A stretch of DNA of 64,000 nucleotides from a virus: positions 5,172-69,171 of the IMG/VR virus record IMGVR_UViG_3300036799_000109, one strand, 5' to 3'. Below the pieces are notes generated by a model that was given only the letters and a program-made list of their open reading frames with translations, was not told the origin of the DNA and searched no databases. This document shows, one piece after another, positions 38,552 through 55,510 of this stretch. Made by a program: the position numbers and the translations under genes. Each line of letters opens with the position of its first letter. Positions within the stretch are counted from its first letter, which is position 1.

Positions 38552-40030
38552 TCAGGCCGCACGGTTGTGCAGCAGACGGTGGTAGCGGTCGGTGATGGCG
38601 CGACGGAAACGGGACTCGGCAGGCGACTCGGGCTTCCCCGGTTTCGAGGGCTGGTCGTCAGCAGGCTCGTCGGGTTCGTCGTCGTCAGCGGGTTTGCCCG
38701 CGGCCGGGGCAGGGGCTTGCTTCGCGGTGAGCGCAGCCTTGCTGGCCTCGACGACATCGGCCCACCGGATGATCGTGGACTTGTCGATGATCACGTGCTC
38801 CTCGCCACCGGATTCCTTGCCCACCGGGGGCTCGCCGATGTCGACGAGGTAGTCATCCAGCGTCCAGACACCGTTGCGCAGGCGTTGATCGCGAATGTCC
38901 TCCACGACCTTGTCGTCGCGCCAGTCGTAGTCGTGCAGGATCAGTGACCAGCCGCTGATCCCGAAGGCCTGCCGGGTCAGGGCGTAGTTGAGCTTCTCCA
39001 GCACCAGTTCCGCCACAGGCCCGCAGGTGTTGACGCGGAACGTCTTGTCCTGCGACGGGCCTGTGCCGCCGCCGAGGTTGCCGGCTTCGATGACGCCGAC
39101 CTTCGCGGGCGGCACACCTGCCTCGCTCAGGATCGTGTCGCGCGTCTGATCCATGATCGACAGGTAGTCGCCGAGTTTCCCCGGCTGCAGCTCAGTGAGG
39201 TTCGCCCCGCCGCGCGTGGTCACCGGGTTGCCGATGTTGTCCGGGCCGAGGTTGCGGGTGCGGTACTGCGCGCGCCATTCGCGCACCTCGGAGATGGACA
39301 CTTCCAGCGGCCAGTCGATAGCGAGATGCGGCGGGTTGCCGCGCGCCATCGTGCTCTTGAGGACACCAGCCGCGTAGAGCCAGATCTTCACCGGCAGCAG
39401 CGCTTTCTGCGCCACCCCGACCCCGTAGAGCGAGCCGTACGGGCTGTCCATGCTGATGTGCACGACCTCGCGCGGCTTGAAGGTCACCTCACGCCGGTCG
39501 AGGGCCTGCAGATAGCCGCTGACCTGGCCGTGTTCGTCGGCGAGCACGGTCATCGTCGCCGGGTCGAGCAGGTACAGCGCCACCGGCAGGCCGAGGAGCC
39601 AGACGACCTCCACGAAGGCGTCACCGTAGATCTGCAGGTCCGTGACCACGCCACGCAGCAGCTGACGGATGTCCATCTGCGGGTTGCAGTAGTCGAGCAG
39701 GTCCTGCAGGGCCTGCACGTCAGGCGGGCGAGTCGGCTGGCCGGCCTCGGCGTCCTCGTTCTCGTCGTCAGGGCGGATCTGCAGCCCGCCCGCGGTCACG
39801 GTGCGGGCCACGGTGTCGATCGGCGCCGACAGCCACGGGCAGCCGATGTAGGCCTCGCGCAGCTGCGACATGAACTCGCCGCGGGACACCGGGTAGGCGC
39901 CACCGGGCTGGACCTGAGTGCTGCCGCCGAGCGGCACGTCGACGTCGAACCCTGCGCGCTTCGGCGTGCGCTGCTCAGGGATCTTCGGGGCGGCCTCCAG
40001 CACCGAGAGCGCCCCGGTTGCCGCCAGCAT
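38552..40030 (-). CDS. Portal protein
   Basis: DLQIYGDAFVEV, LYLLDP, EVVHI, LYGVG, GVPPAKVG motifs. Confidence 0.9.
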   Translation of the reverse strand: MLAATGALSVLEAAPKIPEQRTPKRAGFDVDVPLGGSTQVQPGGAYPVSRGEFMSQLREAYIGCPWLSAPIDTVARTVTAGGLQIRPDDENEDAEAGQPTRPPDVQALQDLLDYCNPQMDIRQLLRGVVTDLQIYGDAFVEVVWLLGLPVALYLLDPATMTVLADEHGQVSGYLQALDRREVTFKPREVVHISMDSPYGSLYGVGVAQKALLPVKIWLYAAGVLKSTMARGNPPHLAIDWPLEVSISEVREWRAQYRTRNLGPDNIGNPVTTRGGANLTELQPGKLGDYLSIMDQTRDTILSEAGVPPAKVGVIEAGNLGGGTGPSQDKTFRVNTCGPVAELVLEKLNYALTRQAFGISGWSLILHDYDWRDDKVVEDIRDQRLRNGVWTLDDYLVDIGEPPVGKESGGEEHVIIDKSTIIRWADVVEASKAALTAKQAPAPAAGKPADDDEPDEPADDQPSKPGKPESPAESRFRRAITDRYHRLLHNRAA

Positions 40031-40275
40031 CAGGTCACCTGTTCAGCGGCGACTCGCTGGGTGTACTTCACGCGGTCGCGTTCGACGTAGGTCTCGCCAG
40101 GTGCGGCGGGCTCGCTGCCCTGCCCTGCGCGCAGGTGCACGTCACCGAACTTCAAGGTCCGCTTGTCCGCGTCGAGCAGCAGGCCGTCGAAGACACCACC
40201 GTCGATCAGGAACACCAGCAGGCGTGTGCGCACGTGCGCCAGGCCGCGCATGATCCTGTCTTCGCGCCACGCCAC
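40030..40275 (-). CDS. Small Sm-like hypothetical protein before portal
   Basis: FDGLLLDAD...TYVERDRVKYTQ. Confidence 0.65.
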   Translation of the reverse strand: MAWREDRIMRGLAHVRTRLLVFLIDGGVFDGLLLDADKRTLKFGDVHLRAGQGSEPAAPGETYVERDRVKYTQRVAAEQVT

Positions 40276-41561: not shown

Positions 41562-43187
41562 TCACACCTGCGCCCAGGTGCCGTCTTCCTGCTGAGTCAG
41601 CTCCCGTATCCCGTGCCTGTGCAGGTCAGACGCTTTCCATCCGTAGCCTCCTATGTCTGTGAGCGTCTTGTCCGAATCGGCCGGTTCGTCGTCGAACACC
41701 TGCTGTGGGGCGGTCCCTACCGCCATAAGCAGGTATCGCAACGCGTCGTACCAGTGATCAGGGGCATCGGTGTTGACGTCCTCAATTCGATTCGGGTCAC
41801 GCGGCAGCTCGCCGACCGTGTTGAGCAGGTCCCGGCAGCCGTCGAACACGTGCAGCATCGGGCACAGCGCCCAGCCCAGGGACCGGTGATACACGCACGC
41901 CGGCCCTTCGGAGAGGTAACTGTGCACGCGGGCCTTCCCGGTGATCCGGTCGTTATCCGCTTTGCGAAGCGCCAGGCCTTCAAGCGCAATCTGAGTAGCG
42001 GGCGGCAACGCTTCGCCGTGCTTCCCCCACATCGCCGGGTCGGCTGCCACCGGGCGCGGCACCTGCCCGTCCTCCGCGCACACACCGAGGATCCGTTTCG
42101 CCTGCAACTTCTCCGGGGTCTGCACCATGCTCAGCTCCCGGTACACCCACATGCGCCCGTCGTTGTCCTTGGCCGCGGCGAGGAACACACTCGGCGCGGC
42201 CCACCCGTAGTCCAGGCCGCCGTAGCGCATCCAGGACTGCGGCACCGGGAACCTCGGCACCCTGATCCGTTCCAGCCGCCAGTCCGGGAACGCCTGATCA
42301 GGCATCACCGACCAGTCACCATCGGCGATCATCCGGCGCAGCTCCGGGTCCTCGATCCCGGCCAGGGTCGCCCCGTAGTCCCCGATGAACGGGTTGTCCG
42401 ACACCTTCGCCGGTATGAAGATCACCCGGCGGCCGGCGCCGTCGACCAGCTCCTTCTCCCCGTAGTCCGTGGGCACCACGTACCGGCGCTTCACATTCCC
42501 GTGGCCGATGTTGCCGGGGTTGCTCGCCGACCGGATCCCGAGGCACGGCACACCGGGCACACCGGAGCGAACACGCGTGTACAGCAGGTCCACCACGTCC
42601 GGGCTCATCGTCGTTCGCTCGTCCAGCAGCAGCAGATTGATCTCCGCAGACAGCAGGGCCGAGGCCTCCTGCACGTTCTTCGCATGCCCGAAGGTGATGA
42701 TCGACCCCCCGGGGAAATGCAACTCGTGCTTCCCGCCGTGCCAGTGCGTGCCGAACACCTCGGCGTACCGGTACCGGGCCAGCATCCTGATCACCGACTG
42801 GTTCAGCTCAGGGAACGACCGGCGAAACCAGAACGTCTGCAAGCCGGGGAACCTCACCGAGGCTTGAATCGCGAACATCAACAGCGAGTGCGACTTCCCG
42901 CCGCCGCCTGCCCCGCCGTAGAAGATGTCCATGTTCTCCCAGGGCAGATCCAGGAACCTCTCCTGCGGACACTGCCCGCACCGCGGCGGGATCTCCTCAC
43001 CGGCTTCCGCGGCCGCGTGCTGCACCCGGCAGTTCGGCTCGAACCCGAGCTTCCCGAACACGTCCACGCGCCGGTTCGCCTCAGCCTGCCGGCGCTCCTT
43101 CTCCTCCTGCAGCCGGCGCAACTCATGCAACTTCCGGAGCCGCTCATCGCGCAGAGTCCTGGACGGCCCTGTACCGGGCGAAACCAC
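41562..43187 (-). CDS. terL: Terminase large subunit
   Basis: Walker A YGGAGGGGKS, LLLDE, ASNPG, nuclease GLDYG, ADPA, DHWYDALRY. Confidence 0.95.
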   Translation of the reverse strand: MVSPGTGPSRTLRDERLRKLHELRRLQEEKERRQAEANRRVDVFGKLGFEPNCRVQHAAAEAGEEIPPRCGQCPQERFLDLPWENMDIFYGGAGGGGKSHSLLMFAIQASVRFPGLQTFWFRRSFPELNQSVIRMLARYRYAEVFGTHWHGGKHELHFPGGSIITFGHAKNVQEASALLSAEINLLLLDERTTMSPDVVDLLYTRVRSGVPGVPCLGIRSASNPGNIGHGNVKRRYVVPTDYGEKELVDGAGRRVIFIPAKVSDNPFIGDYGATLAGIEDPELRRMIADGDWSVMPDQAFPDWRLERIRVPRFPVPQSWMRYGGLDYGWAAPSVFLAAAKDNDGRMWVYRELSMVQTPEKLQAKRILGVCAEDGQVPRPVAADPAMWGKHGEALPPATQIALEGLALRKADNDRITGKARVHSYLSEGPACVYHRSLGWALCPMLHVFDGCRDLLNTVGELPRDPNRIEDVNTDAPDHWYDALRYLLMAVGTAPQQVFDDEPADSDKTLTDIGGYGWKASDLHRHGIRELTQQEDGTWAQV

Positions 43188-43326
43188 GGGCTGTACCTCC
43201 GGGTGGGGGAGATGTTCTCCGGAAGATAACCCGGAGCCCCGAAAACCCTTCGGACAACTCTCACGGCAGTGGCCGCTGTGCGCGGTCGTTTGTGCTTTTT
43301 GGATCGTCGGTGACTGTGTGTCAGAG

Positions 43327-43358
43327 AGGCTGAGCGCTCAGTGTTGAGCGCTCAGCCT
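43327..43358. terminator. Hairpin terminator of the CC-void gene
   Basis: AGGCTGAGCGCTCA gtgt TGAGCGCTCAGCCT. Confidence 0.7.
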
Positions 43359-43370
43359 GTCTGTGTGCTG

Positions 43371-43832
43371 CTAGGACGCTGCTAGGACGCTCTCGTCTGC
43401 GACGTCGATCTCGACGCTCGCTGCGTCGATCTCAGCCTGTGCGCGTGCCTCTTGCTCTGCGTTGAGTGCTGCGATCGCGTTGCGCATGTCTGCCTGATAG
43501 GCGAGTGACTCGATCGAGTTGCCTTTCGCAGCTGTGAGGCGTGCAGTTGCGCGAGGTAGGAGCGCGCTCAGGTGCGTGTCGTCAAGCACTGTGACGTTGT
43601 CGCCTGTGAGGCAGATCGTGCTGTAGGACATGCGTGCCTTGCTATCGACACGCGTGTGCAGGATCGACACGAACGCTGCGTAGGTGTCTGTGTCGACGTC
43701 GATCTCTCCTCGCGCGAGGTCAGGCAGCTCAGCCTTGCTGAGGTTGCGAGTGTTGATTGTGTGCGTGTCGATCGCTGCAGGCGTGTCGATCACTGCAGTG
43801 TCGTTGACCTGCGTGCTCTTGCGTGCGCTCAT
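43371..43832 (-). CDS. Hypothetical protein encoded entirely within the CC[ACG]-free island
   Basis: 153 aa, GAGGAG RBS, own terminator; no Trp, all Pro codons CCT. Confidence 0.75.
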   Translation of the reverse strand: MSARKSTQVNDTAVIDTPAAIDTHTINTRNLSKAELPDLARGEIDVDTDTYAAFVSILHTRVDSKARMSYSTICLTGDNVTVLDDTHLSALLPRATARLTAAKGNSIESLAYQADMRNAIAALNAEQEARAQAEIDAASVEIDVADESVLAAS

Positions 43833-43871
43833 GTCCTGCTCCTCAGCTAGGTGAGTCAGCGTTTTGTGACT

Positions 43872-43991
43872 CTCACTGAGTATGTCGCTATCGACACTCG
43901 TTGTGTTACCTGATCTCGTGTGATCGCGCTCACACTATCGACACGCGTTGTGCGTAACACTACGCGTGTCGATAGCGACATACTCAGTGAG
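43872..43991. promoter_or_regulatory. 26-bp perfect inverted repeat with nested repeat in divergent promoter region
   Basis: CTCACTGAGTATGTCGCTATCGACAC ... GTGTCGATAGCGACATACTCAGTGAG; internal CTATCGACACGCGT/ACGCGTGTCGATAG. Confidence 0.75.
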
Positions 43992-44028
43992 CGTCGCAGC
44001 GCGCGACGCAAGAGGCTGAGGAGCAACG

Positions 44029-44352
44029 ATGGACCTACGCGAGACAGCAGCGGTCGCAGTGATCGCAGGCGGAATCTTCTTCACGGGAGCGGCGACAGCG
44101 AACGCGGTACACGGCGAGCCGGCGCAGCCTCAATCGGTGACGGTGCAGGCGCCTGCACCCCAGGTCGTGTCGGTGCAGGCGCCCGCGCCTCGCGTCGTGT
44201 CGGTGCCTGAGGTGCCTGCCGGCGACGTGACCTGGCCTTGGGTGGTCACGCACAACGAGCTGGGCACCTTCAGCTGGCAGGTCAACGCGATGGGCGACAA
44301 GGTGCTGGTGTTCTGCCCCGCGGGCTGGGGAGACGTTGCCTGTGGCGCGTAG
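44029..44352 (+). CDS. Small secreted protein with VQAPAP repeats
   Basis: GAGGAG RBS, signal peptide (ATANA), terminator hairpin at 44367-44404. Confidence 0.7.
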   Translation: MDLRETAAVAVIAGGIFFTGAATANAVHGEPAQPQSVTVQAPAPQVVSVQAPAPRVVSVPEVPAGDVTWPWVVTHNELGTFSWQVNAMGDKVLVFCPAGWGDVACGA

Positions 44353-44479
44353 CTAGTCGCCCGGAGAGCGTGTCGATCGCTATTCGTATAGCGGTCGACA
44401 CGCTTTCGCGTGCCGGCGAGCGGCGCGAGCTCCACCCGCCCGTCCGTCCGCGAGCGGCGGCCGGCGCGGCGGCAGCGGT

Positions 44480-44720
44480 GGCACGGCTGGCCCGGCCACG
44501 CGGTTGGCCCGGCCGTGGTTGGCCGTGGTTGGCCGGTGTTGGCCGGTCGGTGGCCGGGTGGCTGTGGCTCCAGGGACTCCAGGGTCCGTGGTCCGTGGTT
44601 GGCCGGCTCCGTGGTCCGGGTGGTTCCAGGGAGCTCCACGGTCCCCGGCCACTCCAGGGACGCCGAGCACAAAACCGTCCACCCGGCCACGCTCCAGGGC
44701 GGGACCGGGTGGACGGGTGG
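44480..44720. repeat. Non-coding array of TGGCC/CCGG and CTCCAGGG repeats
   Basis: Several TTGGCC units; CTCCAGGG at 44568, 44577, 44652, 44692. Confidence 0.75.
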
Positions 44721-45686: not shown

Positions 45687-46382
45687 TCAGGCGGCGGCGG
45701 TGACCTCGGCGGGTGCCTCAGTGGTCTCGGTCGCGGTCTCGGTCGTGGCCTCGGGGGCGGGAGCCTCGGGGACGACGACGGTCGGGGTGCTCGTCGGCGC
45801 TGCGGCCTTGGGTGCGGTGTAGGTCGGCTGGCCGGTGAACTTGCTGACGTCGAGCTGGGTGGTGTCGTACTCGGACGGGGTGAACTCGGTGCCTCGGGCG
45901 GTGAGGATCGCGGTCGCCTTCGCGATCGCGATGCGGCGGGCGTTGCGGTACTTCATCGACTCGGGGCTGTCGCCTCGGCCTTGACGTTCGCGGCGCAGGA
46001 TCGCGTCGCGGATCTTCAGCACGGAGTCGTCGTCGGGCTGGACCTCGTCCTCGGGGCGGTACAGGTGGGGGAAGAGGCGGTAGGCCTCGCCGGCTGACGG
46101 GTTCTTCATGTTCACGTCGGTGAAGTCGACGGCCTCGAACTTCGGGGTCTCGGTGTCTTCCTCGGCCGGGGCCTCGGCAGGACCTTCGGTCGGGGCTTCG
46201 GGCTCCTCGACCTGCGGGGCCTCAGCTGGGGTCTCGACGTCCGCCTGCGGGGCCTCAGGTGCCTCAGCCTGCGGGACCTCAGTCGCCTCGACCTGCGGGG
46301 CTGCAGCCTGCTCCACGACGTCTTCCTTGCGTGAGCGAGGCGAGGAGTTGCGGCGGGTGCGGGAGGTGGTGTTCGCGGTCAT
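45687..46382 (-). CDS. Acidic Glu/Ala/Pro-rich hypothetical protein
   Basis: AAGGAG RBS, start MTANTT; EAP repeats flank a small folded core. Confidence 0.7.
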   Translation of the reverse strand: MTANTTSRTRRNSSPRSRKEDVVEQAAAPQVEATEVPQAEAPEAPQADVETPAEAPQVEEPEAPTEGPAEAPAEEDTETPKFEAVDFTDVNMKNPSAGEAYRLFPHLYRPEDEVQPDDDSVLKIRDAILRRERQGRGDSPESMKYRNARRIAIAKATAILTARGTEFTPSEYDTTQLDVSKFTGQPTYTAPKAAAPTSTPTVVVPEAPAPEATTETATETTEAPAEVTAAA

Positions 46383-46416
46383 TGTGGGGCTCCTTCTTGT
46401 CGGTGTTTCGCGCTTG

Positions 46417-46534
46417 TCTTGCAAGAACAACATTAGTCGTGGAAAGCGCCGCAAACGACACTCGTAGGTCACGAGAAGGTCACAATAACGAGTGTTGACT
46501 GCGAACGCGCCGAGAGTAGGTTTGACCTGCAAGA
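46417..46534. promoter_or_regulatory. Divergent promoters with ACGAGTG and (T/C)(C/T)TGCAAGA motifs
   Basis: Plus strand ACGAGTG-TTGACT-N16-TAGGTT..CCTGCAAGA; minus strand ACGAGTG...TAATGT..TCTTGCAAGA. Confidence 0.65.
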
Positions 46535-46567
46535 ACACGAACAAACGGCACGACGAGAGGACCCGAC

Positions 46568-46942: not shown

Positions 46943-47009
46943 CACCCCCGGCCCCGGCCGGAGAGGGAACCTCGCCCAACGAGAGGGCCAGGTTCCCTCT
47001 CGCGCGTCC

Positions 47010-47265
47010 CGACCACCTGGCCGGTCCAACCGTCCCGGCTGGATCACGGCGGCCCGGCCGGTCCAGCCACGGTCTGGTCAGACCAGGGCCGGCATGGTCC
47101 ACGGTCCGGATGGTCCAGCCAGCCCAGGGCCCCAGGGAGCTCCAGGGACTCCAGGGCCAAACGGCTCCGTGGCTGGTCCAACCGCTCCAGGGACTCCAGG
47201 GCTCCAGGGACTCCAGGGTCAACCCGAGCCCAGCTCCAGGGACCCCGACGACTCCAGGGAACCAA
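47010..47265. repeat. Array of co-oriented CTCCAGGG(A) repeats
   Basis: CTCCAGGG at 47140, 47149, 47185, 47194, 47202, 47211, 47234, 47252 plus CCCAGGG variants. Confidence 0.85.
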
Positions 47266-47728
47266 CCCGACCACCCGCCGACTCCAGCTCCCCATCCTCC
47301 GTGGGCATCGACGCCAGCACCCGGTCAATCTCACCCTGCGTCCGGGCAATCTCCGCCTCAATCGCATCCATCGACAACGTCAACGACTTCGTCGGCGCAT
47401 ACCCGCCCGTGATCTTCGCCCGCTCCGCGACAAACCCACGCACCGCGGTCCAGGCATTAATCCGCACCTGAGCCTCAACCGTCAGATCCATGCCGATGCC
47501 GATCAACTGCCGCGTCCCCAGCTCAATCGTCCCGAGCATCTCCCGCCGATGCTCATCCAGCGCCAGGGCCGGGATCTCAACCAGCGCCTCCTGATACACC
47601 TGACACGCCCGCGCACCGGAGATCTGCCACTGCCGGCCAATCTCATCGAACGAGACGTTCGCCGTCCGCGCCCGGATGATCGCCGCAGCCCGCTCAGCCT
47701 TGTACTCCGGATCGAGCGTCTTCCCCAC
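47219..47728 (-). CDS. Putative terminase small subunit (HTH)
   Basis: N-terminal HTH (VSFDEIGRQWQISGARACQVY), ERAKITGGYAP, helical C-terminus; GGGAGG RBS; co-oriented upstream of terL. Confidence 0.65.
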   Translation of the reverse strand: MGKTLDPEYKAERAAAIIRARTANVSFDEIGRQWQISGARACQVYQEALVEIPALALDEHRREMLGTIELGTRQLIGIGMDLTVEAQVRINAWTAVRGFVAERAKITGGYAPTKSLTLSMDAIEAEIARTQGEIDRVLASMPTEDGELESAGGRVGSLESSGSLELGSG

Positions 47729-54445: not shown

Positions 54446-55510
54446 CTACAAAACACCAGTCCAGGCGTTGTGCTCCATGTCGTCCACTGCCCTGTTGTAC
54501 ACATTCAGCCGGTTCGACCTCGGCGACAACCGGCCCATGCGGAGCAGCACCGAGTGAGGCACCTTGTTCCGGCAGCCGATCGTGAACGCGGCCGCGCGAG
54601 CCGTGTGCCCCGACACCTGATCCGCATGCTCCAGGCCTGCCTGCTGCGCCCGGTACCGGAACACCCTGCCCACCCATTCACCGGAGAGCCGTTCACCGGG
54701 CCGGTCGTACGGCACCGCCCTGATCAGCGGCCCGCCGATCACGCCGTGCAAAGCGAGCATCGCCTTCCAGGCCCGCAGCAGCGCCGGCAGATCCGTCTCG
54801 TCGAACGAATCCGACCTGATGCGCACCTCCTCGCCGCGCGCCGCCTGGTCGGTCTTCGAGGACCCGACGTACACCATGATCCCGCCGTCGATGATCTCCA
54901 CGTCGTCCCAGTTCAGCGCCACGACCTCGGACTCGCGCCCGAACATCGCCAGGGCCAGGACCATGAGCAGCCAGTCCCGCAGCCCGAGCAGCGTCGTCGG
55001 ATCGCAGGTGGCGATCATCAGGTGGAGTTCTTCGATGGTGATCGGCGCGGCGGCCTTCTGCCGGCCTTTGCCGCGTTTCGCCCGGTCCCGGCTGTGCTCC
55101 TTCAGCAGTGCGAGCGCCAGCTCTGTGTCCGGTTGTCGTTTGTGCCCCGACCAGCGGTGCACCGTGCGGATGGCGTAGATCGTCTGCTGGATCGTGGACA
55201 CCGCGAAGTCCTCGTCGGCGAGATGGGCGACGTACTCGGCGAGGGTGTACTCGGTCGCGGGCAGCGCCACCCGCTTCTCCTCCAGGCACCAGCCGACGAA
55301 ACCGCCCGGTGGGTCCGGGGTGATCCACTGGTCGACGTCGGCGTCTTTGCTGCCCGTTCTGGTGCCGTCCCAGGCGCGGCGGTAGGCGCGCAGTGTGTTA
55401 CGCGACGTCGAGGCCCGTAGACGGCGCACGGTGTCCTCGGACAGTGCGAAGTCCGCCGCGGTGTACTCAGGTGCGACCTCGGCGGCCTGGATCCAGGGCT
55501 GAATGCTCAC
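54446..55510 (-). CDS. Cre-like tyrosine recombinase
   Basis: NTLRAY SAM-like domain, GLRDW..GRESEV (R), SKTDQ (K), SGHTAR (HxxR), MGR, VYNR (Y); no arm-binding N-terminal domain. Confidence 0.9.
   Translation of the reverse strand: MSIQPWIQAAEVAPEYTAADFALSEDTVRRLRASTSRNTLRAYRRAWDGTRTGSKDADVDQWITPDPPGGFVGWCLEEKRVALPATEYTLAEYVAHLADEDFAVSTIQQTIYAIRTVHRWSGHKRQPDTELALALLKEHSRDRAKRGKGRQKAAAPITIEELHLMIATCDPTTLLGLRDWLLMVLALAMFGRESEVVALNWDDVEIIDGGIMVYVGSSKTDQAARGEEVRIRSDSFDETDLPALLRAWKAMLALHGVIGGPLIRAVPYDRPGERLSGEWVGRVFRYRAQQAGLEHADQVSGHTARAAAFTIGCRNKVPHSVLLRMGRLSPRSNRLNVYNRAVDDMEHNAWTGVL

What the first reader, a model, noticed from the sequence alone, without database searches (positions are those of the whole stretch)
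43311..44029. ~720-bp island (gene, divergent promoter and terminator) with no CCA/CCC/CCG on either strand
Seen: from 43311 to 44029 every CC is followed by T and every GG is preceded by A. By hand I count about 32 CC/GG dinucleotides, all CCT/AGG. CCA, CCC, CCG, TGG, GGG and CGG are absent, although they occur several times per 60-nt line elsewhere. The 153-aa gene obeys the rule (no Trp, Pro only CCT, every Gly preceded by an A-ending codon). The void covers the terminator, CDS and promoter and ends at the ATGG of the divergent gene. It lies between terL and the terS-like gene, where a packaging or entry end could be. Inference: strong selection keeps one transcription unit free of a CC[ACG] signal. 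Option (a) is escape from a host system reading that motif; Ssp phosphorothioation is, as I recall, reported at CCA and at CCS in a Streptomyces, which needs checking, and restriction sites such as GGCC, CCGG and CCWGG are also removed. The gene would then be a first-expressed anti-defence factor. Option (b) is that the element's own DNA is modified at CC[ACG] in a way that blocks host RNA polymerase, so the pioneer gene must be modification-free.
Basis: partly seen in the sequence, partly recalled or inferred. Interest (0 to 1): 0.92.

Follow-up and report, generated by a model that had tools for sequence, protein, structure and literature searches.

The report
CC[A/C/G]-free gene cassette in soil phage
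A 722-base stretch of a soil phage, holding one small unknown gene with its control region and terminator, completely lacks the three-letter DNA words CCA, CCC and CCG on both strands although about 100 are expected, which implies that something still unidentified reads these words on DNA and that this one gene unit must escape it.

Summary
From 43308 to 44030 no CC[ACG] or [CGT]GG occurs on either strand. About 109 are expected, and the next-longest gap in the 69-kb record is 61 nt. CCT/AGG occurs 32 times, which is the normal rate. No null model reaches zero, including one that keeps the island's own dinucleotide counts. The DNA is real: identical contigs occur in three soil metagenomes.

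The void covers:
- an orphan 153-aa gene whose composition is bent by the rule (no Trp, 3 Pro, 3 Gly, Ala mostly GCA);
- its terminator hairpin;
- a ~190-bp palindromic divergent control region.

Its right edge, at the neighbour's ATG, is the edge of that palindrome.

There is no deamination signature, and the head-module relatives have no comparable void. The two densest CC[ACG] patches of the genome lie next to the void.

Best reading: selection against a duplex-DNA word read by an unidentified cutting or marking factor. No evidence supports Ssp, an anti-defence role or early entry. No homologue exists, so conservation cannot be tested.

This scan earlier noted fully GG/CC-free islands in at least eight other phage or phage-plasmid genomes. 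This island is a variant that tolerates CCT/AGG.

The parts
43308..44030 (.). Void: no CC[ACG] or [CGT]GG on either strand between the CGG at 43308 and the TGG at 44030. It holds 13 CCT and 19 AGG. GC is 59% against 68% for the window.
43322..43363 (-). Terminator-type hairpin 8 nt past the stop codon: a perfect 14-bp core stem extended to about 18 pairs. No U-run follows it. The void ends 11 nt beyond its base.
   Evidence: I2; -34.6 kcal/mol, z -6.5, 0 of 200 shuffles fold as well.
43367..43388 (-). Tandem 11-nt duplication (2 copies). It supplies the last codons and the TAG stop of the gene.
   Evidence: (D1), sequence read
43371..43832 (-). Orphan 153-aa ORF, directly upstream of terL on the same strand. 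GAGGAG lies 6 nt before the ATG. GC at codon positions 1/2/3 is 0.63/0.47/0.73. Composition: W 0, P 3 (all CCT), G 3, Ala GCA 16 of 28. pI 4.56.
   Evidence: An ORF this long arose in 3.4% of order-2 Markov simulations of the island. No relative found.
43837..44025 (.). An imperfect palindrome of about 190 bp centred near 43931. The outer 11-nt blocks are identical and carry the ribosome-binding sites of both divergent genes (43837-43847 and 44015-44025). Inside are 45-nt arms, 91% complementary (43865-43909 and 43954-43998), and a nested 18-nt pair (43935-43952 and 43958-43975).
   Evidence: (I1, I4, I19); -86 and -90 kcal/mol on the two strands, z -9.7 and -10.9.
43644..43973 (.). Eight GTGTCGA sites (7 as GTGTCGAT; 0.05 expected for the 8-mer). 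Starts at 43644(-), 43663(-), 43690(+), 43765(+) and 43783(+) lie inside the 5' half of the gene. Starts at 43890(-), 43937(-) and 43966(+) lie in the intergenic palindrome. Candidate operators or structural repeats.
44029..44352 (+). Divergent orphan 107-aa gene with a signal-peptide-like N-terminus. CC[ACG] density is normal overall, but there is a weak bias: on its sense strand CCT 10 against CCV 10 (second highest of 89 genes), and Pro is CCT in 6 of 10 codons.
44362..44407 (+). Hairpin of about 20 bp after the 107-aa gene. Its arms carry the same GTGTCGA word (sites at 44370 and 44395).
   Evidence: -40.2 kcal/mol, z -6.7.
44458..44707 (+). Non-coding repeat patch with the highest CC[ACG]/[CGT]GG density of the whole record: 78 per 250 nt, against mean 38 and sd 8.5. 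It includes 4 CTCCAGGG copies. The second-highest patch (72) is at 46944-47193, overlapping the second array (8 copies, 47140-47259).
41562..43187 (-). Large terminase gene (GTG start, GGAGG 8 nt upstream). The 123 nt between it and the void have normal word content.
   Evidence: phrog_2, E 3e-23.

Best explanation
The island is a self-contained, moron-like expression cassette. It has a palindromic divergent control region, an orphan 153-aa gene and a hairpin terminator. It has been purged by selection of the duplex-DNA word CC[A/C/G] (= [C/G/T]GG), while CCT/AGG is left at its normal frequency.

Shown:
- the purge, its sharp borders at the ends of the unit, and its cost in codon and amino-acid usage;
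- that it is not chance, not base composition, not a repeat artefact, not an assembly error and not a simple deamination footprint.

Inferred:
- A sequence-reading factor acts at every CC not followed by T, on either strand.
- A single hit in this unit is harmful.
- The rest of the genome, with about 10,000 sites, is either hit without lasting harm, protected in another way, or exposed only after this unit has acted.

Favoured form, all inference: a frequent-site nicking, cutting or marking activity of the host or of the phage. This one unit is exempt because it must still be transcribed by unaided host polymerase. The two sub-forms are escape from a host enzyme until the product acts, and exemption from the phage's own DNA mark. 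I cannot separate them here. The function of the 153-aa product is not known.
For: - 0 against about 109 expected CCV/BGG over 722 nt, with CCT/AGG at 32 against 27 expected. Every null model fails.
- Each of CCG, CCC and CCA is separately extreme.
- The borders follow function. On the left the void ends 11 nt past the terminator hairpin. On the right it ends at the ATG of the next gene, which is also the outer edge of the palindrome whose two halves carry the same ribosome-binding block.
- Both strands are equally clean, as expected for a reader of duplex DNA.
- Coding has been bent to fit. W 0, P 3 and G 3 against 3.2, 9.9 and 13.3 expected. GCA is 57% of Ala codons against 9% genome-wide.
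- No transition excess. The lost sites are replaced about equally by CTV (+38), CAV (+37), ACA (+28), GCA (+15) and TCA (+15). This argues for selection rather than C-to-U editing.
- The sequence is mostly non-repetitive, with 599 distinct 8-mers in 719 nt. Copying of a clean seed therefore cannot explain it.
- Identical DNA occurs in three soil metagenomes.
- Published principle: phages that lack a restriction motif only in the first-injected region escape restriction although the motif is present elsewhere (PMC12455610, abstract read). The T5/BF23 first-step-transfer region is discussed in the same terms (PMC10644984, passages read).
Against: - No homologue of the gene or of the island exists anywhere searched. 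Conservation of the void, the strongest test of selection, is therefore missing. All three metagenome copies are identical, so ongoing purifying selection is not shown either.
- No known enzyme, PAM or modification system reads exactly CC[A/C/G].
- No DNA-marking gene was found in the 69 kb held.
- Four head-module relatives show no void for any 2- to 4-letter word.
- Nothing shows that the unit is expressed first or enters first. If the repeat patch at 44458-44707 were a lambda-like cos site, this terL-side end would be packaged first and injected last (textbook knowledge, not tested here).
- No promoter was identified.
- The ORF itself is only moderately supported (p about 0.03 for its length).
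Confidence: 0.45

Rival explanations
1. RNA-level selection. The mRNA of the 153-aa gene, from its start site to its terminator, must survive a sequence-specific endoribonuclease of the host (a toxin) or of the phage (host shut-off). It would resemble transcripts that lack a MazF or MqsR site.
For: The void matches one plausible transcript: the 5' region with the long hairpin, the coding sequence and the terminator. The neighbouring 107-aa gene shows a weak bias on its sense strand only: CCV 10 against CCT 10, with BGG normal at 30 against AGG 7.
Against: The same RNA would have to avoid both CCV and its reverse complement BGG. A single-strand reader does not predict this. The palindrome's far arm and the presumed promoter are also clean. 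The plus-strand message that starts in the void runs straight into normal CCV-rich coding sequence. No RNase with this specificity is known to me (recalled, not searched).
Confidence: 0.1
2. Mutational footprint. A context-specific cytosine deaminase (target C in CC[ACG]) has repeatedly edited this exposed locus (transcribed, or extruded as a cruciform) until no target was left, without selection on the word.
For: GC falls from 68% to 59%. CTA/TAG is enriched 2.9-fold and CTC/GAG 1.7-fold. Stronger APOBEC3 pressure on early genes of animal viruses is in print (PMC8115780, start of the abstract in the listing).
Against: Transition products take up at most about 45% of the roughly 110 lost sites (CTV +38, TCV +10). 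Transversion products rise as much (CAV +37, ACA +28, GCA +15). The ORF is intact although TGG would turn into stop codons. The amino acids enriched (Ala, Thr, Ile) are not deamination products of Gly, Pro or Trp codons. The left edge is sharp to within about 10 nt.
Confidence: 0.06
3. PAM-free cassette. CC[ACG] is the protospacer-adjacent motif of a host CRISPR-Cas system. The cassette, for example an anti-CRISPR-like locus with a palindromic operator, cannot then be acquired as a spacer or targeted.
For: PAMs are 2-3-nt words read on duplex DNA on either strand. Type I-B PAMs discriminate at the third position (YYD in Thermotoga, PMC13199841, abstract). Depletion of the CC PAM in Pseudomonas phages is reported (PMC12174588, abstract). 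The cassette looks like an anti-CRISPR locus in outline: a small orphan acidic protein, inverted repeats at its control region, and a site among structural genes (that outline is recalled).
Against: One PAM matters only if a matching spacer exists. Selection per site is therefore weak and gives partial, genome-wide depletion, not 0 of about 109 in one 722-nt unit. Targets elsewhere in the genome would still kill the phage. No HTH or Aca-like gene is present, and there was no hit in PADLOC. The host and its CRISPR type are unknown.
Confidence: 0.05
4. Insulated cassette. A DNA-binding protein of the element recognises GG/CC-rich repeats (the CTCCAGGG arrays and neighbouring repeats) and spreads or scans along weak sites, for instance a packaging, partition or transfer protein. 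The cassette next door is kept free of any such site so that it stays open for expression.
For: The two highest CCV/BGG densities of the whole record (78 and 72 per 250 nt; mean 38, sd 8.5) lie 430 nt and 2.9 kb from the void, in non-coding repeat arrays.
Against: Binding to degenerate weak sites should tolerate some occurrences, not enforce zero. It does not explain why CCT/AGG is fully tolerated. No candidate protein was identified. The proposed TraB/FtsK-type translocase is not supported (no PF01580 match; no Pfam family for the 701-aa protein).
Confidence: 0.06
5. Foreign or chance composition. The cassette is simply a horizontally acquired moron from a lower-GC source.
For: GC is 59% against 68%. 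The cassette has its own terminator and is absent from relatives.
Against: Shuffles that keep the island's own base or dinucleotide composition never fall below 73 and 16 sites. No genome can lack these words as a whole, since Trp and most Pro and Gly codons would be lost.
Confidence: 0.01

Closest known systems
Motif-free leading (first-injected) regions: T5/BF23 first-step-transfer DNA, and the leading region of Murciavirus (Autographiviridae) against a Type I R-M system
   Same: A recognition word is absent from one privileged stretch although it is present elsewhere in the genome, and that local absence decides survival (PMC12455610, abstract; PMC10644984, passages).
   Different: In those cases the word is a 4- to 13-nt restriction site with a few expected copies, and the region is known to enter first. 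Here the word has 3 nt, about 109 copies were removed, and protein composition was reshaped. Entry order is unknown, and no enzyme with this specificity is known.
GG/CC-free islands noted earlier by this scan in other phages and phage-plasmids (e1-3543736, e1-5969878, e1-6051799, e1-5962213, e1-5352931, e1-6008787, e1-6137634, e1-6051808; unchecked AI notes)
   Same: A small autonomous operon of about 0.7-1.6 kb is cleared of the CC/GG step on both strands, with proteins poor in Gly, Pro and Trp.
   Different: Those islands are described as having no CC/GG at all, as conserved across relatives, and as lying in phages of about 110 kb from Proteobacteria. Here CCT/AGG is fully tolerated (32 copies). 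The element is a high-GC soil phage whose distant terL relative was binned with a Streptosporangiaceae MAG. No relative carries the island.
Morons of temperate phages (autonomous promoter-gene-terminator units of deviant composition between conserved phage genes; recalled definition)
   Same: The gene has its own terminator hairpin, a GC content 9 points below its surroundings, a site between terL and the variable region, and is absent from head-module relatives.
   Different: Morons are not known to lack any short word. The promoter is not identified here.
Nt.CviPII/M.CviPII of chlorella virus NYs-1 (site CCD; recalled, no call)
   Same: An enzyme pair that reads a 3-nt CC-word with discrimination at the third base. 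This shows that such short specificities exist.
   Different: The specificity is CCD (not C), whereas here it is CCV (not T). It comes from a eukaryotic algal virus. No homologue was sought or found here.
Ssp phosphorothioation (SspABCD-SspE/FGH)
   Same: It reads CCA. It occurs in Streptomyces among other hosts (papers in the listing).
   Different: It covers only one of the three missing words. The mark is placed on host DNA and sensed there, so loss of the word from phage DNA is not a known escape.

Membership tests
Leading-region / first-step-transfer type restriction-site avoidance | The motif-free stretch is the first DNA to enter the cell | not testable with these tools
   Only contigs were available. 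The record is linear, without end repeats, and about 70% complete.
Leading-region / first-step-transfer type restriction-site avoidance | The motif is the recognition site of an identified host restriction system | not testable with these tools
   The host is unknown. No system reading CC[ACG] turned up in the paper searches.
Leading-region / first-step-transfer type restriction-site avoidance | The motif is present at normal density elsewhere in the genome | tested here: met
   9,729 sites in the window, mean gap 6.6, next-longest gap 61.
Leading-region / first-step-transfer type restriction-site avoidance | The region encodes pre-early or anti-defence functions | tested here: inconclusive
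   The protein is an orphan. There was no hit in Pfam, PHROGs or PADLOC. No anti-defence library was on hand.
GG/CC-free phage islands of this scan | No GG or CC dinucleotide at all | tested here: not met
   13 CC and 19 GG are present, all as CCT/AGG.
GG/CC-free phage islands of this scan | The trait is kept by relatives | tested here: not met
   The island has no relatives. Four terL relatives have no void.
GG/CC-free phage islands of this scan | Proteins lack Gly, Pro and Trp | tested here: inconclusive
   W 0, but P 3 and G 3, against 3.2, 9.9 and 13.3 expected. They are depleted, not absent.
Moron | Own terminator and own promoter | tested here: inconclusive
   The terminator hairpin is strong. 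No sigma-70-like promoter was found.
Moron | Composition unlike the flanks, and absence from related phages | tested here: met
   GC 0.59 against 0.68. Only the head module is shared with relatives.
Ssp/Dnd phosphorothioate target avoidance | The missing word equals the PT site (CCA for Ssp; GGCC-, GAAC- or GATC-type for Dnd) | tested here: not met
   CCC and CCG are as absent as CCA. The Ssp site is CpsCA by the abstract of PMC9646914. The Dnd sites are recalled.
Cytosine-deaminase (APOBEC-like) footprint | Lost sites are replaced mainly by transition products | tested here: not met
   CTV +38 and TCV +10, against CAV +37, ACA +28 and GCA +15.
CRISPR PAM depletion | The word equals the PAM of the host's system | not testable with these tools
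   The host is not identified.
Small terminase (by position upstream of terL) | Sequence or fold similarity to terS families | tested here: not met
   No Pfam or PHROG hit at E <= 0.1. The AlphaFold2 model is unusable (mean pLDDT 46.7). In relatives the ORFs upstream of terL have 260-293 aa and are unrelated.

The most novel reading that the evidence does not exclude
Soil actinomycetes or their phages possess an undescribed activity that reads the three-letter word CC[A/C/G] on duplex DNA, with CCT invisible to it, and with single-site consequences. This phage keeps one autonomous cassette invisible to that activity. Together with the fully GG/CC-free islands that this scan noted in proteobacterial phages and phage-plasmids, this would point to a widespread class of very-short-word DNA readers (nickases, modifiers or sensors) that shapes phage gene cassettes. 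The T-exception here gives the first handle on the specificity of such a reader.
Probability: 0.25. Interest if true: 0.88.

Novelty: new variant of a known kind. Interest (0 to 1): 0.72.

Why it matters
Local avoidance of a recognition site in a privileged part of a phage genome is known for ordinary restriction sites. A complete purge of a 3-nt word is not known. It costs the encoded protein its Trp and most of its Gly and Pro, and it forces rare codons. Such a purge implies a reader that acts at roughly every seventh base of normal DNA, and nothing of that kind is described for bacteria of this type.

The sharp contrast of 0 of about 109 CC[A/C/G] against 32 of about 27 CCT gives a precise, testable specificity. 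With it one can search for the enzyme, look for DNA marks in native long-read data, or recode a reporter.

Tried and rejected
- Relatives of the 153-aa protein. None was found in Pfam or PHROGs, by tblastn against 50,697 phage records, in 5.8 billion proteins (only itself), by HMMER against 1.84 billion representatives (only itself), in the ESM Atlas (no usable hit) or in PADLOC. The 107-aa neighbour is likewise an orphan.
- Fold. The AlphaFold2 single-sequence model has mean pLDDT 46.7. No fold search was run on it, because it would be meaningless.
- Relatives of the island DNA. Megablast against phage records found no match. A metagenome scan with the protein gave 598 pattern hits, none a relative. 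A palindrome pattern found 0 in viral contigs. In metagenome contigs it found 2 hits that proved unrelated. The looser pattern gave 119 chance loci, which I used only as a control set.
- Conservation of the void. This could not be tested. The terL relatives (63-66% identity) share only terL, portal, the MuF-like protein, capsid-region genes and a few tail or lysis matches.
- Deamination origin. Rejected on the trinucleotide balance.
- Origin by copying of a clean repeat. Rejected. Complexity is only slightly low, with 599 distinct 8-mers against 658 +/- 10 in order-2 simulations.
- The phage's own marking enzyme. PF01555, PF00145, PF01702, PF02086 and PF01507 gave no match in six frames. The PF05063 search was uninformative, because its control rang nowhere. 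About 30% of the genome is not held, so this is no proof of absence.
- RNA families and tRNAs. There was one chance-level Rfam hit (E 0.26) and no tRNA.
- Expression. No RNA holder was listed among the sequencing runs.
- The strong AGG-over-BGG bias of the 285-aa gene at 45687-46544 looked like a strand-specific version of the rule. It is explained by its Glu/Ala/Pro-rich low-complexity sequence.
- Literature. Full-text searches found no paper that describes an island free of a trinucleotide, or a reader of CC[ACG]. These four searches are my only basis for saying it is not in print.
Full report
**What is there**

The window is part of a 69,171-nt IMG/VR virus record. The record is linear, without end repeats, and CheckV rates it about 70% complete. 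It is a high-GC (68%) tailed phage with these recognisable genes:
- a large terminase (41562-43187, minus strand; phrog_2, E 3e-23);
- a portal, a MuF-like protein, capsid-region genes and a 1388-aa tape-measure-sized gene;
- a GH25 lysin and a GntR/UTRA regulator;
- a weak tyrosine-recombinase match, 25.8 bits against a cut-off of 27.1.

Most other genes have no family.

**The observation**

I read 43100-44300 and counted words. Between the CGG at 43308 and the TGG at 44030 there is no CCA, CCC, CCG, TGG, GGG or CGG. About 109 are expected at the window's frequencies. CCT occurs 13 times and AGG 19 times, against 12.8 and 14.2 expected.

The gap is 722 nt. The next-longest of 9,729 gaps is 61 nt and the mean is 6.6. 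The same is true of the whole record.

None of the null models comes near zero:
- 5000 mononucleotide shuffles gave a mean of 101.7 and a minimum of 73.
- 5000 shuffles that keep the island's own dinucleotide counts gave 23.8 +/- 2.3 and a minimum of 16.
- The chance that all 32 CC/GG steps sit in CCT/AGG is about 6e-20.
- Redrawing the 153 codons synonymously gave a mean of 51.8 and a minimum of 33 with genome usage (3000 draws). With uniform usage it gave a mean of 31.8 and a minimum of 13 (20000 draws).

CCG, CCC and CCA are each extreme alone. Their longest gaps should hold 54, 36 and 26 copies.

Other DNA shows nothing similar. In four relatives read whole (336 kb), no word of 2-4 letters has a gap statistic above 21. 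In 119 unrelated viral loci (995,088 nt) the largest normalised CCV gap is 18.9, against about 110 here.

**It is real DNA**

Logan contigs of three soil metagenomes, filed under three studies in 2020, match without a difference:
- X1: 2512 nt spanning 42125-44636, which covers both edges of the void;
- X2: 663 nt spanning 43197-43859, which covers the left edge;
- X3: 151 nt at 43822-43972.

X1 may be the source sample, and the three studies may be one campaign. Because the copies are identical, they give no population variation to test selection with.

**Anatomy**

On the minus strand the void holds, in order:

(i) A palindromic control region. It is an imperfect palindrome of about 190 bp centred near 43931.
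- Its outermost 11-nt blocks (43837-43847 and 44015-44025) are exact inverted copies. They carry the GAGGAG ribosome-binding sites of the two divergent genes.
- Inside are 45-nt arms, 91% complementary, and a nested 18-nt pair.
- As a single strand it folds at -86 to -90 kcal/mol, z about -10.

(ii) A 153-aa ORF at 43832-43371.
- GC at codon positions 1/2/3 is 0.63/0.47/0.73.
- An ORF this long arose in 3.4% of order-2 simulations of the island.

(iii) An 11-nt tandem duplication that provides the stop codon.

(iv) A terminator-type hairpin at 43322-43363 with a perfect 14-bp core stem (-34.6 kcal/mol, z -6.5).

The void ends 11 nt beyond the hairpin on the left. On the right it ends at the ATG of the divergent 107-aa gene. 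The right edge is thus the outer edge of the palindrome. The right half mirrors the left half, and this explains why the void stops exactly at that start codon.

Eight GTGTCGA sites lie in the 5' half of the gene and in the palindrome; seven of them are GTGTCGAT, where 0.05 are expected for the 8-mer. Two more form the arms of the hairpin after the 107-aa gene.

No sigma-70-like promoter was found, so 'promoter' remains an inference.

**The cost of the rule**

The protein has no Trp, 3 Pro (all CCT) and 3 Gly, against 3.2, 9.9 and 13.3 expected from the phage's proteome. Ala is GCA in 16 of 28 codons, against 9% genome-wide. The protein is acidic (pI 4.56, net charge -10), but it is only 17th of 90 predicted proteins by charge density.

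**What it is not**

- Composition alone. Ruled out by the shuffles above.
- A deamination footprint. Transition products CTV and TCV rise by +38 and +10. Transversion products rise as much: CAV +37, ACA +28, GCA +15. The ORF is intact. The enriched amino acids (Ala, Thr, Ile) are not deamination products of Gly, Pro or Trp codons.
- Copying of a clean repeat. There are 599 distinct 8-mers in 719 nt. This is lower than the 658 +/- 10 of order-2 simulations, but the sequence is mostly unique.
- An assembly artefact. Ruled out.

**Relatives**

The 153-aa and 107-aa proteins have no relative in any search.

terL has relatives of 63-66% identity in nine IMG/VR loci and in one contig binned with a Streptosporangiaceae MAG. 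Four of these records were read whole: 128.8 kb and 95.4 kb (both rated complete), 80.8 kb and 31.2 kb. They share only the head module and a few other genes with this phage. They have no void. Upstream of terL they carry unrelated 260-293-aa ORFs.

The island is a singleton.

**Surroundings**

The 123 nt between terL and the void have normal word content. To the right, the 107-aa gene has normal overall density but a weak sense-strand bias. It has CCT 10 against CCV 10, the second highest of 89 genes, and Pro is CCT in 6 of 10 codons. BGG is normal. One other gene (40030-40275) reaches a similar value, so this is only suggestive.

The two highest CCV/BGG densities of the whole record lie in non-coding repeat arrays 430 nt and 2.9 kb from the void. 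They are 78 and 72 per 250 nt, against a mean of 38 and an sd of 8.5. The arrays hold 4 and 8 co-oriented CTCCAGGG copies. So the genome's minimum and its two maxima for this word sit within 4 kb, between terL and the gene at 47219-47728.

**Mechanism**

The reverse-complement symmetry, the inclusion of untranslated DNA and the zero count argue for a reader of duplex DNA for which one site in this unit is already harmful. The rest of the genome carries about 10,000 sites. So the unit must be special in one of two ways.

The first form has a published principle. Phages that lack a Type I motif only in the first-injected region escape restriction (PMC12455610, abstract). The T5/BF23 first-step-transfer DNA is discussed in the same way (PMC10644984, passages). 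I cannot show that this island enters or is expressed first. With a lambda-like cos site in the neighbouring array, this end would be injected last (textbook knowledge).

For the second form I found no marking gene in the 69 kb held, but about 30% of the genome is missing.

Ssp does not fit. By the abstracts, its site is CpsCA only and the mark sits on host DNA.

A PAM reading is conceivable. Third-position discrimination exists in type I-B systems (PMC13199841, abstract), and CC depletion is reported in Pseudomonas phages (PMC12174588, abstract). However, it predicts weak genome-wide depletion, not a local purge.

An RNA-level reading would need the same transcript to avoid a word and its reverse complement.

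**Comparison and novelty**

By anatomy the cassette is moron-like. By principle it is closest to motif-free leading regions.

This scan has earlier noted fully GG/CC-free islands of 0.7-1.6 kb in at least eight other phage or phage-plasmid genomes, and one CA/TG-free island. These are unchecked AI notes. The present case differs in three ways. It tolerates CCT/AGG completely, it lies in a high-GC soil phage, and it has no relatives. It fails the defining features of that group as those notes describe it: it has CC/GG steps, and the trait is not kept by relatives.

My four literature searches found no description of a trinucleotide-free island or of a CC[ACG] reader.

**Verdict**

- Confidence in the general reading: 0.45.
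- Most novel reading not excluded (an undescribed class of very-short-word DNA readers): probability about 0.25.
- Interest: 0.72.

Noticed in passing
window 44458-44707 and 46944-47259: Non-coding repeat arrays, with 4 and 8 co-oriented CTCCAGGG copies plus GTGGTTGGCCG-like repeats, hold the two highest CC[ACG]/[CGT]GG densities of the whole record. They lie right beside the void.
   Followed up: partly
Pfam gave no family at E <= 0.01. A six-frame search of the whole record with PF01580 found nothing at E <= 1. The 'conjugative phage-plasmid' label therefore lacks this support.
   Followed up: partly
It has no Pfam family.
   Followed up: partly
window 45687-46544: This ORF encodes a Glu/Ala/Pro/Thr-rich low-complexity acidic protein, whose real start is probably an internal ATG. 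On its sense strand there are 30 AGG but only 7 other NGG. Its composition explains this; the void's rule does not apply.
   Followed up: yes
window 43367-43388: A perfect tandem duplication of an 11-nt unit creates the last codons and the in-frame TAG of the 153-aa gene. This suggests that its C-terminus was set by a recent slippage event.
   Followed up: no
window 40030-40275: An 81-aa gene upstream of the portal has the lowest CC[ACG]/[CGT]GG density of all 89 predicted genes (0.086 per nt against a mean of 0.149) and the highest CCT share (9 of 16 CCN). This may be a weak echo of the same bias, or chance.
   Followed up: no
window 54446-55510: The only recombinase-like gene matches Phage_integrase below the Pfam cut-off (25.8 against 27.1 bits). 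The temperate lifestyle is therefore likely but not established.
   Followed up: no
L011 (contig CAYPQM010000002.1) compared with G002/L005: A 95.2-kb contig binned with a Streptosporangiaceae MAG matches terL over the same residues and at the same identity as the 95.4-kb IMG/VR record that has terminal repeats. It is probably the same phage genome binned with the MAG, so it is only weak evidence for the host.
   Followed up: no
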